A DNA stretch of 63,449 nucleotides, counting the filler, from Rhabdomonas costata (lineage: Eukaryota): NCBI GenBank assembly GCA_019059605.1. It is 57 parts of 57 records of this genome, joined end to end, with 100 filler letters (N's around TTAATTAATTAA, not from the genome) between each part and the next. Parts side by side here need not be neighbours in the genome. Positions count along the whole stretch, not along the records: positions 12,266 to 13,280 come from JAHMHO010033440.1; positions 13,381 to 14,395 come from JAHMHO010033441.1; 55 more parts are not named here. One strand, written 5' to 3'. The notes beneath the pieces were generated by a model. That model saw only the letters and a program-made list of their open reading frames with translations. It was not told where the DNA came from and did no database searches. Below are positions 12,266-13,705 of the stretch, in pieces (position 1 is the stretch's first letter; each line of letters opens with the position of its first letter). The position numbers and the translations under genes are program-made.

Positions 12266-12545
12266 TGTTTTTTGTTACATCATATGATATTGATGATGTA
12301 TATATATATTTATCATTAATTTTCTTTTTTGTTCTAAAACAATACAATTTATCAGTTTCTGATATAGGATATATAAAACTACATATTATTTTCTTTATTT
12401 TTTTATCATCAGAATTAACACATGAAAAAATATCATTTACAACATCTTTTATTTGTGATTCTTCAAAAAATTCATTTTTGTAATTTTCATCAATTATCAA
12501 TTTTATTTCGTTTAATTGTGAATTTAAATTACTTTTTTTTGTCAT
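12266..12545 (-). CDS. AT-rich hypothetical protein, N-terminal part, truncated by contig end; probably viral
   Basis: ATG at 12545, open to the contig edge; K/N/I-rich with the same composition as the adjacent RPB7 gene. Confidence 0.7.
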
Positions 12546-12551
12546 TAATAT

Positions 12552-12619
12552 AAAAATATTTTAAATATTTAAGTATATTCAAAATATTTTGAATATTTAA
12601 GTATATTTAAAATATTTTT
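12552..12619 (-). terminator. Intergenic AT-rich palindrome, candidate mimivirus-type polyadenylation hairpin
   Basis: 17-bp perfect arms 12552-12568/12603-12619, a 6x6 internal loop and a perfect 22-bp core palindrome 12575-12596, starting ~10 nt after the RPB7 stop. Confidence 0.7.
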
Positions 12620-12628
12620 TATAAAATA

Positions 12629-13195
12629 TTATTCTGTAAAAAAATAATTCTTAACTTCAACATCAGTTGCCATACGTTCAAGAATACCAGTTGTTATAAT
12701 TGATGTATCTTTATGTGTAAATGTACGTGATTCTATTAATACAACAACATAATTTCCAGTTGTTAACATATTATTTTGACTTTTATTTTTTATGAAAATA
12801 TTTCCATCTCGATCTGTTGCAAAATTATTTTTATCAATTCTGTCATAAGTTACTATAACTAAAATTGGACCATTTATTAATCGTAATATAGCTCGATTAA
12901 TACGATCAACATAACATACAATCTGTTTATCAATAGTTGGGTAACAGATACTACATTTAAATTTAACATTAAATTTTGCACTACACATTGGATCTTCAGC
13001 AATAATTCGTATTTGTTTATAATCAACAATTTCAAATACTTCGATAATACAACCGATATCTTCGAAACATTTATTTTTAAACATTTTTACAAAATTATTT
13101 TTAAGATGTGTTAACAAATTATTATTCATTTGATTCGGGAAAAGTGACACATTTGATGATATATAATCTACTTTATACGGTTTTGATAGTGACAT
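12629..13195 (-). CDS. rpb7: DNA-directed RNA polymerase subunit RPB7/RpoE homologue, NCLDV (Mimiviridae-like) type, 188 aa, complete and intronless
   Basis: PY..V.L.PNQMNN..L..LKNN...KC...G.I..V..I....I.AED....A.F.V.F.C..C.P...I...V..IN....L.NGPI fits RPB7 (N-terminal RNP-like plus OB domain) as I recall it from mimivirid homologues; roughly 20% GC by eye. Confidence 0.8.
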   Translation of the reverse strand: MSLSKPYKVDYISSNVSLFPNQMNNNLLTHLKNNFVKMFKNKCFEDIGCIIEVFEIVDYKQIRIIAEDPMCSAKFNVKFKCSICYPTIDKQIVCYVDRINRAILRLINGPILVIVTYDRIDKNNFATDRDGNIFIKNKSQNNMLTTGNYVVVLIESRTFTHKDTSIITTGILERMATDVEVKNYFFTE

Positions 13196-13277
13196 ATTTA
13201 TTTATATTGATATTTTTTATTTTAAATGATTTAAAATAAAAAATATCAATATAAATAAATATGTCACTATCAAAACC
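13179..13277. repeat. Perfect 49-bp inverted repeat with 1-nt loop at contig end
   Basis: 13179-13227 is the exact reverse complement of 13229-13277; it includes the first 17 nt of the RPB7 CDS. Confidence 0.95.
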
Positions 13278-13705
13278 ACANNNNNNNNNNNNNNNNNNNN
13301 NNNNNNNNNNNNNNNNNNNNNNNNTTAATTAATTAANNNNNNNNNNNNNNNNNNNNNNNNNNNNNNNNNNNNNNNNNNNNTGTGGGTGGGGGCAAATGGG
13401 GTTTCGCACATAATGGGACTTTTTGGCTTGACAAAGCGAAAAAGTCAATTCTGCGGGAAAACGCCTATCGCTTCCCCAATGAAGTCTCTGTGGTACTGCA
13501 CGCGGATATATCAGCACTAAAAAGATCTGAACGCGCGCGCTTCTTCAGGTGATATTCCTTCATTTTCAGAGGTTGTTCTAACGAACCGCACCTGTTTTTT
13601 TTGTTCTGCTTTCGTCACCACTCTCCTTTTGTGATTTTTGTGAGGTTGAGATAGGGAAGGAAGGGAGTGTGGTGCCCAGCGGGACTGCCTTTTTTGTCTC
13701 TCACA

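What the first reader, a model, noticed from the sequence alone, without database searches (positions are those of the whole stretch)
12266..13280. Giant-virus (Mimiviridae-like) contig with RPB7 inside a euglenozoan-like assembly
Seen: this single contig is roughly 20% GC among ~50% GC neighbours, is intronless and gene-dense (two co-oriented ORFs 83 nt apart), and carries a complete 188-aa RPB7-like ORF. Known: Mimiviridae encode their own multi-subunit RNA polymerase including RPB7, many have very AT-rich genomes, and Bodo saltans virus infects a euglenozoan. Inference: this is DNA of a possibly undescribed giant virus that infects, is integrated in, or was co-sampled with this protist. Intact ORFs and no host-like junction favour a free or recent virus, but 1 kb cannot settle this.
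Basis: partly seen in the sequence, partly recalled or inferred. Interest (0 to 1): 0.85.

Follow-up and report, generated by a model that had tools for sequence, protein, structure and literature searches.

The report
Giant-virus RPB7 gene fragment
A 1-kb, very AT-rich contig in this amplified protist assembly is a real piece of a Mimivirus-type giant virus carrying its own RNA polymerase subunit RPB7, which is a familiar kind of find and too short to say how the virus relates to the cell.

Summary
The window is 57 unrelated contigs of about 1015 bp joined by N spacers. Only 12266-13280 is AT-rich (19.9% GC against 43.6-56.6%). It carries a complete 188-aa ORF (12629-13195, minus strand), and 83 nt downstream a co-oriented partial ORF.

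The ORF is an RPB7-type RNA polymerase stalk subunit: Pfam SHS2_Rpb7-N above cut-off and an AF2 model at pLDDT 94.

Its best named matches are Mimiviridae proteins: Catovirus 39% identity (TM 0.92), Mimivirus LCMiAC01 36%, Bodo saltans virus 31%. Cellular and archaeal RPB7 reach only 11-21% identity. It has 382 relatives in a 1.8-billion-protein library, the best at 50% identity. All 17 fetched relatives' loci are 17-25% GC and gene-dense. One is labelled a giant-virus MAG.

So the viral reading is supported: a new member of a known kind.

Infection, ingestion, co-sampling and integration cannot be told apart, because no whole assembly or reads were available.

New points: contig ends carry whole-genome-amplification primer remnants. 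The last 52 nt are a fold-back, probably an amplification chimera. The usual RPB7-NUDIX gene order is absent here.

Interest is modest.

The parts
12266..13280 (.). Single 1015-bp contig, 19.9% GC, bounded by N spacers: a fragment of an Imitervirales-type giant-virus genome, probably one amplification product
12629..13195 (-). Complete 188-aa RPB7 gene (RNA polymerase stalk subunit): N-terminal SHS2 domain followed by a C-terminal beta-barrel
   Evidence: Pfam PF03876, E 3.5e-7, 30.7 bits against a cut-off of 24.8. AF2 pLDDT 94.3. Catovirus protein 39% identity, TM 0.92. Pol II RPB7 chains TM 0.66-0.75. 382 relatives at E<=1e-3.
12552..12619 (-). Imperfect AT-rich palindrome in the 83-nt spacer, directly after the RPB7 stop codon. 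It is a candidate 3'-end (termination/polyadenylation) hairpin of the kind described for Mimivirus transcripts.
   Evidence: 34-nt arms, 82% complementary. RNA fold -18.5 kcal/mol, z -4.65, 0 of 200 shuffles as stable; repeated (z -5.0). Hairpin motifs are listed as a family trait in PMC6163669.
12266..12545 (-). ORF2: the N-terminal 93 aa of a co-oriented gene that runs off the contig. It has no detectable relatives (ORFan). Its last 3-4 codons may be primer-derived.
   Evidence: Chance of an open frame of this length is about 5%.
13196..13228 (-). The only trustworthy upstream (promoter) sequence of the RPB7 gene, 33 nt. It contains no AAAATTGA motif.
13229..13280 (.). Fold-back: a perfect reverse-complement copy of 13179-13227 plus 3 unmatched bases. 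Probably a snap-back amplification or assembly chimera, not virus genome structure.
   Evidence: Arms 49 nt, 100% complementary, 1 nt between them. Seen in only 1 of 57 contigs. The contig end is an A/C-only primer-type run.

Best explanation
The contig is a fragment of the genome of a giant virus of the order Imitervirales (Mimiviridae in the broad sense). It was present in the low-input sample from which this protist DNA was amplified and assembled.

What the gene does. It carries the virus's own RPB7 gene. RPB7 is the stalk subunit of a Pol II-like multi-subunit RNA polymerase. It has an N-terminal SHS2 domain that anchors it on the polymerase core, and a C-terminal OB-type barrel that in cellular and archaeal enzymes contacts the emerging RNA. 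In Mimiviridae this subunit belongs to the virus-encoded transcription machinery, which works in the cytoplasmic virus factory independently of the host nucleus.

Other features. The AT-rich palindrome just after the stop codon would form the 3'-end hairpin that marks termination/polyadenylation sites in this virus family. A second gene without relatives follows it.

Shown here:
- RPB7 identity and fold.
- Nearest kinship with Mimiviridae and giant-virus MAG proteins.
- Composition and gene density typical of such viruses.
- The stability of the hairpin.

Inferred, not shown:
- That the protein is assembled into a viral polymerase.
- That the hairpin acts in 3'-end formation.
- That the DNA was a free or replicating virus rather than an insertion.

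The protein is at most 50% identical to anything in the libraries searched, and sits in a small clade of its own. The virus itself is therefore unsampled.
For: RPB7 identity:
- Pfam SHS2_Rpb7-N above the curated cut-off; 38 of 41 family members scanned also match it.
- A profile of the family hits Pol II RPB7 best (E 1e-17), then archaeal Rpo7 (1e-10), Pol III RPC8 (1e-6) and ASFV D339L (2e-6).
- AF2 model pLDDT 94.3, pTM 0.85.

Viral kinship:
- The five best BFVD matches are Catovirus CTV1 (39% identity, TMq 0.92), an unnamed entry (27%), Megaviridae environmental sample (30%), Bodo saltans virus Rpb7 (31%) and Mimivirus LCMiAC01 (36%).
- Listed PDB chains (cellular, archaeal, poxvirus, ASFV) are 11-21% identical, TMq at most 0.75.
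- Yeast Rpb7 scores only 20 bits by phmmer, against 80-178 bits for the 150 listed family members.

Context of relatives:
- 17 loci were fetched (two pairs are near-duplicates). All are 17.4-24.9% GC and gene-dense.
- They carry Erv1/Alr, NUDIX, SNF2-type helicases with inteins, ankyrin-repeat proteins and translation factors.
- One contig is 381,857 bp. One is named GVMAG.

Literature:
- RPB7 is listed among genes shared across the expanded Mimiviridae (PMC3620924, passage).
- Mimivirus encodes Rpb7/E as L376 (PMC3058096, passage).

Other:
- Hairpin after the stop codon: z -4.65. Such hairpins are listed as a trait for recognising partial Mimiviridae sequences (PMC6163669, passage).
- No relative was found in one genome each of 185,579 prokaryote species. 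This is a weak negative because it is a pattern-based scan.
Against: - No other NCLDV hallmark (capsid, PolB, A32, VLTF3) could be sought. The assembly is not held, and the window has no second low-GC contig.
- The one relative's record that could be searched whole (85,772 bp; completeness estimated at 7%) has no capsid match.
- No formal tree with cellular outgroups was built, because no cellular RPB7 sequences could be brought in as stored proteins. The separation from cellular RPB7 rests on scores, identities and fold matches.
- The Mimivirus early-promoter motif AAAATTGA is absent from both upstream regions. Its single hit in the contig lies inside ORF2. Only 33 and 83 nt of upstream sequence exist.
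- The RPB7-NUDIX gene order, found in 12 of 17 relatives' loci, is not present here.
- The post-RPB7 hairpin is clearly significant in only 2 of the 12 relatives' loci tested (L012, L013).
- The library proteins and most contigs bear no organism names. The viral nature of the closest clade (P0002, P0198, P0003, P0027) is therefore inferred from the wider family.
Confidence: 0.88

Rival explanations
1. The fragment is part of a giant-virus insertion (endogenous viral element) in the protist's own chromosome, not of a free or replicating virus.
For: Nothing specific was found here. It simply cannot be excluded: only 1 kb is available, both ends are primer-bounded, and neither reads nor the whole assembly could be examined. 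That giant-virus insertions exist in protist and algal genomes is my recollection, not checked here.
Against: The contig is uniformly 5-25% GC by part, with no step toward the 44-57% of the other contigs. Both ORFs are intact. The RPB7 CDS has a third-position GC of 10.6%, so it shows no drift toward host composition.
Confidence: 0.07
2. The gene is the cellular RPB7 (or RpoE/Rpo7) of an AT-rich eukaryote or archaeon that was co-sampled, eaten or symbiotic.
For: The family profile matches Pol II RPB7 best among solved structures (E 1e-17). [quoted passage not shown]
Against: Identity to the listed solved chains, cellular and archaeal RPB7 homologues included, is 11-21%, against 27-39% to named Mimiviridae proteins and up to 50% to family members. 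Relatives sit in contigs with viral gene sets, 7 of the 17 loci in IMG/VR records, one named GVMAG. The pattern scan of prokaryote genomes found none. The two genes lie 83 nt apart with no intron.
Confidence: 0.03
3. The contig is a chimeric amplification product, so the RPB7-ORF2 adjacency (and perhaps ORF2 itself) does not reflect the virus genome.
For: The material was amplified with degenerate K-primers. This very contig ends in a perfect 49-nt fold-back, which shows that rearranged molecules entered the assembly. The expected NUDIX neighbour is missing. ORF2 has no relatives.
Against: The spacer between the two genes is an imperfect palindrome (82% complementary) and not a perfect one, as expected of natural sequence. 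Composition is continuous across it. 5 of 17 relatives' loci also show no NUDIX match after RPB7; in 2 of these (L011, L014) RPB7 lies near the contig end. This rival concerns only the gene order, not the viral origin.
Confidence: 0.15

Closest known systems
RPB7 subunits of Mimiviridae/Imitervirales: Catovirus CTV1 A0A1V0SC25, Bodo saltans virus Rpb7 A0A2H4UV02, Mimivirus LCMiAC01 A0A481YZS9, Mimivirus L376
   Same: Same two-domain fold (TMq 0.80-0.92 for the full-length named matches). Identity is 31-39%. Very AT-rich, gene-dense genomic setting. A hairpin follows the stop codon. RPB7 is part of the shared gene set of the family.
   Different: At most 50% identical to any library protein. 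It falls in a small clade of five with long branches (SH-aLRT 97; terminal branch 0.72). At 188 aa it is among the shortest family members, with no C-terminal tail. The downstream Zn-knuckle/NUDIX gene usual in relatives is replaced by an ORFan.
Eukaryotic Pol II RPB7 (e.g. PDB 2c35_B, 1wcm_G, 9mu7_G) and archaeal Rpo7/RpoE (1go3_E)
   Same: Homologous SHS2 plus OB-barrel stalk subunit. Foldseek E 1e-9 to 6e-11, TMq 0.62-0.75. The family profile reaches E 1e-17 for RPB7 and 1e-10 for Rpo7.
   Different: Only 12-21% identity. C81 and C84, which are nearly invariant in the viral family, have no cysteine counterpart in yeast Rpb7 in the printed alignment. No RPB4/RpoF partner gene is in view.
RPB7 homologues of other NCLDV: vaccinia Rpo18 (6rfl_G), ASFV D339L (8q3b_D), iridovirus homologues
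   Same: Same fold and the same role as a virus-encoded stalk subunit.
   Different: Much more distant: 8-18% identity, TMq 0.5-0.66. ASFV D339L is about 339 aa with a large C-terminal extension.

Membership tests
RPB7 / Rpo7 / RPC25 family of RNA polymerase stalk subunits | N-terminal SHS2 domain (Pfam PF03876) | tested here: met
   E 3.5e-7, 30.7 bits against a cut-off of 24.8; residues 15-69 cover profile positions 3-57 of 57.
RPB7 / Rpo7 / RPC25 family of RNA polymerase stalk subunits | C-terminal OB/S1-like beta-barrel following the SHS2 domain | tested here: met
   No Pfam S1 hit. However, the AF2 model (pLDDT 94) has strands from residues 91-175, and fold alignments to RPB7/Rpo7 chains span 165-188 columns, so both domains are covered. 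This rests on a predicted structure only.
RPB7 / Rpo7 / RPC25 family of RNA polymerase stalk subunits | Assembly into a multi-subunit RNA polymerase (with or without an RPB4-like partner) | not testable with these tools
   No other polymerase subunit lies on the 1-kb contig, and the assembly is not held.
Imitervirales / Mimiviridae (giant viruses) | Marker protein groups with the family's orthologues and not with cellular ones | tested here: met
   The five best BFVD matches are Mimiviridae or unnamed entries at 27-39% identity; listed PDB chains are 11-21%. The protein is nested among proteins from IMG/VR and GVMAG contigs in the family tree. There is no cellular outgroup in that tree.
Imitervirales / Mimiviridae (giant viruses) | NCLDV hallmark genes (major capsid protein, PolB, A32 ATPase, VLTF3) in the same genome | not testable with these tools
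   No whole assembly. This is the only low-GC contig among 57.
Imitervirales / Mimiviridae (giant viruses) | Hairpin-forming motif at the 3' end of genes | tested here: met
   12552-12619: -18.5 kcal/mol, z -4.65, 0 of 200 shuffles. The trait is listed in PMC6163669. Only one gene end could be tested. In relatives, 2 of 12 spacers were as clear.
Imitervirales / Mimiviridae (giant viruses) | Early promoter motif AAAATTGA upstream of genes | tested here: not met
   0 hits in 13196-13228 or 12546-12628. The one hit in the contig (12497-12504) lies inside ORF2. The motif marks only early genes, and PMC3058096 states that the Mimivirus transcription genes are expressed late. This is therefore weak evidence.
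Imitervirales / Mimiviridae (giant viruses) | Conserved local gene order: SNF2-type helicase, RPB7, Zn-knuckle NUDIX hydrolase | tested here: not met
   NUDIX lies downstream of RPB7 in 12 of 17 relatives' loci (alignment). ORF2 here shows no similarity to it. The upstream side is cut off by the fold-back.

The most novel reading that the evidence does not exclude
The contig is the only visible trace of a so far unsampled Imitervirales lineage. Its RPB7 is at most 50% identical to anything among about 15 billion proteins, it forms its own five-member clade, and its local gene order is rearranged. On this reading the virus was replicating in the single protist cell (or few cells) whose DNA was amplified. 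That would give a direct virus-host link for an uncultured protist.
Probability: 0.3. Interest if true: 0.5.

Novelty: new member of a known kind. Interest (0 to 1): 0.3.

Why it matters
Giant viruses of the Mimivirus type are abundant in water, but most have no known host. A viral fragment inside an amplified, low-input protist assembly is a candidate virus-host association. If the rest of the low-GC fraction of that assembly holds more of the same virus, it could yield a partial genome of a new lineage together with its host.

For users of this assembly the practical message is curation:
- This contig is not host DNA.
- Its last 52 nt are an artefact.
- Many contigs still carry amplification-primer bases at their ends.

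By itself, a 188-aa RPB7 adds little to what is known about viral transcription.

Tried and rejected
- Whole-assembly binning: not possible, because no genome is held.
- INPHARED phage records (tblastn, E<=1): no match.
- IMG/VR scans with the query alone and with a two-sequence alignment: no relative found. The scans succeeded only when relatives were used as queries.
- The 41-sequence alignment was too divergent for a pattern scan.
- Capsid search in the record behind L001: no match, and the control genomes did not ring either, so it is uninformative.
- Searches of the record behind L005 (capsid, A32, VLTF3): the record is not held.
- Organism names for library relatives: none came back, only generic product names. 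Named anchors therefore come from BFVD alone.
- ORF2: no Pfam family. It is not the NUDIX neighbour. No tblastn hit in the 17 loci. No Atlas hit. It does not resemble the Cys-rich membrane protein that sits between RPB7 and NUDIX in L010, L012 and L013, by eye only.
- Host identity: Rfam gave 0 matches at gathering threshold. Five ORFs of 204-313 aa gave 0 Pfam families. Atlas gave only weak FAST/RESC6-like eukaryotic leads below the recognition level. 'Euglenozoan-like' is neither supported nor refuted.
- A transcriptome origin for the window was considered and rejected. The median longest open frame per contig is 132 codons, against 107 in shuffles, which fits sparsely coding genomic DNA.
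- Earlier findings of this scan: nothing on this genome or sequence.
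Full report
**What the window is.** The 63,449-base window is not one stretch of chromosome. It is 57 contigs of 1006-1020 bp, joined by spacers of N with TTAATTAATTAA in the middle. They appear to be sorted by length, so 'neighbours' are neighbours in a file only. Fifty-six contigs have 43.6-56.6% GC. The contig at 12266-13280 has 19.9%.

**The observation.** On the minus strand the contig has a complete ORF of 188 aa (12629-13195). After an 83-nt spacer, a second co-oriented ORF starts at 12545 and runs off the contig, giving 93 aa. 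In 2000 Markov simulations of the contig:
- 1 produced an open frame of at least 188 codons.
- 96 produced one of at least 93 codons.
- 1 produced two frames of at least 93 codons.

GC is 24.5% in the first ORF (10.6% at third codon positions), 17.5% in the second and 4.8% in the spacer.

**What the 188-aa protein is.**
- Pfam finds the SHS2_Rpb7-N domain above its curated cut-off (E 3.5e-7).
- A phmmer search of PDB sequences gives yeast Rpb7 as best hit, but weakly (E 0.0026, 20 bits).
- An exhaustive phmmer search of 1.84 billion representative proteins gives 382 relatives at E<=1e-3 and 260 at E<=1e-10. The best are 50%, 45% and 46% identical.
- With 40 of these as an alignment, AlphaFold2 gives a confident two-domain model (pLDDT 94.3).
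- Against solved structures the model matches the stalk subunits: Pol II RPB7, archaeal Rpo7/RpoE, Pol III C25, vaccinia Rpo18 and ASFV D339L. TMq is 0.50-0.75, with only 11-21% identity.
- A profile of the family scores Pol II RPB7 best (E 1e-17), then archaeal Rpo7 (1e-10), RPC8 (1e-6) and ASFV D339L (2e-6).
- 38 of 41 aligned family members carry the Pfam domain.

**Whose RPB7 it is.** Against predicted structures of viral proteins (BFVD), the five best matches are:

| Entry | Identity | TMq |
|---|---|---|
| Catovirus CTV1 | 39% | 0.92 |
| unnamed entry | 27% | 0.90 |
| 'Megaviridae environmental sample' | 30% | 0.88 |
| Bodo saltans virus Rpb7 | 31% | 0.80 |
| Mimivirus LCMiAC01 | 36% | 0.61 (shorter target) |

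More distant Imitervirales (Tetraselmis virus 1, Pyramimonas orientalis virus, ChoanoV1) and pox-, asfar- and iridovirus homologues follow at 8-18% identity. So the protein is two to three times closer in identity to Mimiviridae RPB7 than to any solved cellular one.

The library relatives carry no organism names. I therefore looked at their genomic settings and fetched 17 loci: 7 from IMG/VR and 10 from metagenome contigs, with L001/L002 and L013/L017 being near-duplicates or duplicates.
- All are 17.4-24.9% GC and densely packed with ORFs.
- Around RPB7 they carry an SNF2-type helicase (twice with an intein), a Zn-knuckle NUDIX hydrolase, ankyrin-repeat proteins, an Erv1/Alr thiol oxidase, DEAD-box helicases and translation factors.
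- One contig is 381,857 bp. One is named as a giant-virus MAG, GVMAG.

The literature agrees. RPB7 is listed among the genes shared across the expanded Mimiviridae (PMC3620924, passage seen). Mimivirus encodes Rpb7/E as L376 (PMC3058096, passage seen). A pattern scan of one genome for each of 185,579 prokaryote species found no relative.

**Position within the family.** I built a quick maximum-likelihood tree of 112 rows: the query, 5 locus-encoded proteins and 106 library proteins of at least 150 aa, taken from P0001-P0070 and P0166-P0203. The root is a midpoint root only, and there is no cellular outgroup. The query falls in a clade of five with P0002, P0198, P0003 and P0027 (SH-aLRT 97). 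Its terminal branch is 0.72 changes per site. None of these four has a long fetched contig. The virus is therefore unsampled at better than 50% identity for this gene. A single 188-aa marker cannot fix its rank.

**The spacer hairpin.** The 83-nt spacer holds an imperfect palindrome (12552-12619; 34-nt arms, 82% complementary). As RNA it folds at -18.5 kcal/mol, against -7.5 +/- 2.4 for shuffles (z -4.65; 0 of 200 as stable). A review lists hairpin-forming termination motifs at gene 3' ends, and the AAAATTGA early promoter, as traits that help to recognise even partially sequenced Mimiviridae (PMC6163669, passages seen). The primary papers (Byrne 2009, Suhre 2005) I saw only in its reference list.

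The hairpin trait is met for the one gene end available. By the same crude test, only 2 of 12 relatives' post-RPB7 spacers were as clear.

The promoter motif is not present upstream of either gene. The one hit in the contig lies inside ORF2. Only 33 and 83 nt of upstream sequence exist, and PMC3058096 says that the Mimivirus transcription genes follow a late pattern.

**Gene order.** In 12 of 17 relatives' loci a homologue of the Zn-knuckle NUDIX gene lies downstream of RPB7 on the same strand. It is directly adjacent in L001-L006 and L008 and begins shortly after RPB7 in the short L007. One Cys-rich membrane-protein gene lies between them in L010, L012 and L013/L017.

The window's ORF2 is not that gene (BLASTP E 0.37; hhalign probability 0.2%). 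It has no detectable relative anywhere I could look. Either this lineage has a different local order, or the contig is chimeric.

- 41 of 57 contigs begin with a run of at least 6 G/T-only bases, and 40 of 57 end with a run of at least 6 A/C-only bases.
- For the opposite base classes the counts are 0 and 2 of 57. The rate at internal positions is 3.6%.
- The longest runs read like ...GGGTGTGTTTGG followed by ten G/T bases.
- This is the universal primer TGTGTTGGGTGTGTTTGG-K10-NN, described for single-cell whole-genome amplification (PMC10781638 and PMC6961581, passages seen).

So the assembly comes from primer-amplified, low-input DNA with incompletely trimmed primers. The viral contig has such runs at both ends: 11 and 10 nt.

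Its right end is also a perfect 49-nt inverted repeat with one base between the arms (13179-13227 and 13229-13277). It contains the first 17 nt of the RPB7 coding sequence. No other contig of the 57 has anything like it; the longest terminal palindrome arm elsewhere is 8 nt.

A perfect fold-back ending in a primer-type run is best explained as a snap-back amplification chimera. I could not test this with reads.

The other contigs look like sparsely coding genomic DNA, not transcripts. The median longest open frame is 132 codons, against 107 in shuffles.

**What remains open.**
- I could not confirm that the host is euglenozoan-like.
- I could not look for other viral contigs, coverage or junctions.

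Infection, ingestion, co-sampling and integration therefore stay unresolved. The uniform low GC and intact genes argue mildly against an old insertion.

**Verdict.** This is a real fragment of an Imitervirales (Mimiviridae-like) giant virus carrying a complete RPB7 gene. It is a new member of a known kind. It is of practical value as a contaminant/association flag and as a lead to mine the rest of the assembly, but it is not surprising in itself.

Noticed in passing
all 57 contigs of the window, e.g. 6689, 8920, 39016, 49052 (starts) and 24430, 56760, 63449 (ends): Contig ends keep whole-genome-amplification primer bases. 41 of 57 contigs start with a G/T-only run of at least 6 nt, and 40 of 57 end with an A/C-only run of at least 6 nt (controls 0 and 2 of 57). 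The longest runs match the published single-cell WGA primer core plus K10NN. The assembly was not fully primer-trimmed, and its roughly 1-kb contigs may be single amplicons.
   Followed up: yes
window 13179-13280: A perfect 49-nt fold-back at the end of the viral contig includes the first 17 nt of the RPB7 coding sequence. It is unique among the 57 contigs. It is probably a snap-back amplification chimera; this was not checked with reads.
   Followed up: partly
L001:5395-7113 (+): A 572-aa ORF in a 20.5% GC giant-virus-type IMG/VR contig matches the bacterial DNA polymerase III alpha NTPase and finger domains (E 9.6e-42 and 2.4e-14). This is an unusual gene for such a virus.
   Followed up: no
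L001:11620-16086 (-); L005:4940-8917 (+): The SNF2-type helicase genes next to RPB7 carry intein splicing domains (E 5.4e-17; E 4e-8, below the Pfam cut-off).
   Followed up: no
L013:7403-8302, L010:10676-11539, L012:753-1580: In one sub-lineage of relatives, a conserved ORF of about 275-299 aa lies between RPB7 and the NUDIX gene. It has a hydrophobic N-terminal stretch and many invariant cysteines. The L013 copy has no Pfam family.
   Followed up: partly
window 12629-13195 (protein residues C43, C81, C84): Three cysteines are at least 90% conserved across 41 family members, and C71 as well in the closest clade. C81 and C84 have no cysteine counterpart in yeast Rpb7 in the printed alignment. 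They may form a metal site or disulfide specific to the viral subunit. The geometry was not examined.
   Followed up: no
window 40204-41144 (+): The longest open frame among the host-type contigs (313 codons, stop to contig end) has no Pfam family. It gives only weak Atlas leads to FAST-kinase-like/RESC6 domain proteins of eukaryotes, below the tool's recognition level.
   Followed up: partly
L001-L008, L010, L012, L013, L017: A block with an SNF2-type helicase, RPB7 and a Zn-knuckle NUDIX hydrolase recurs in relatives (helicase matched in 11 of 17 loci, NUDIX in 12 of 17). Ankyrin-repeat, Erv1 and DEAD-helicase genes follow in the three loci scanned by Pfam (L001, L005, L008). I recall, without a check here, that Mimivirus has the Nudix gene L375 next to the Rpb7 gene L376.
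   Followed up: partly
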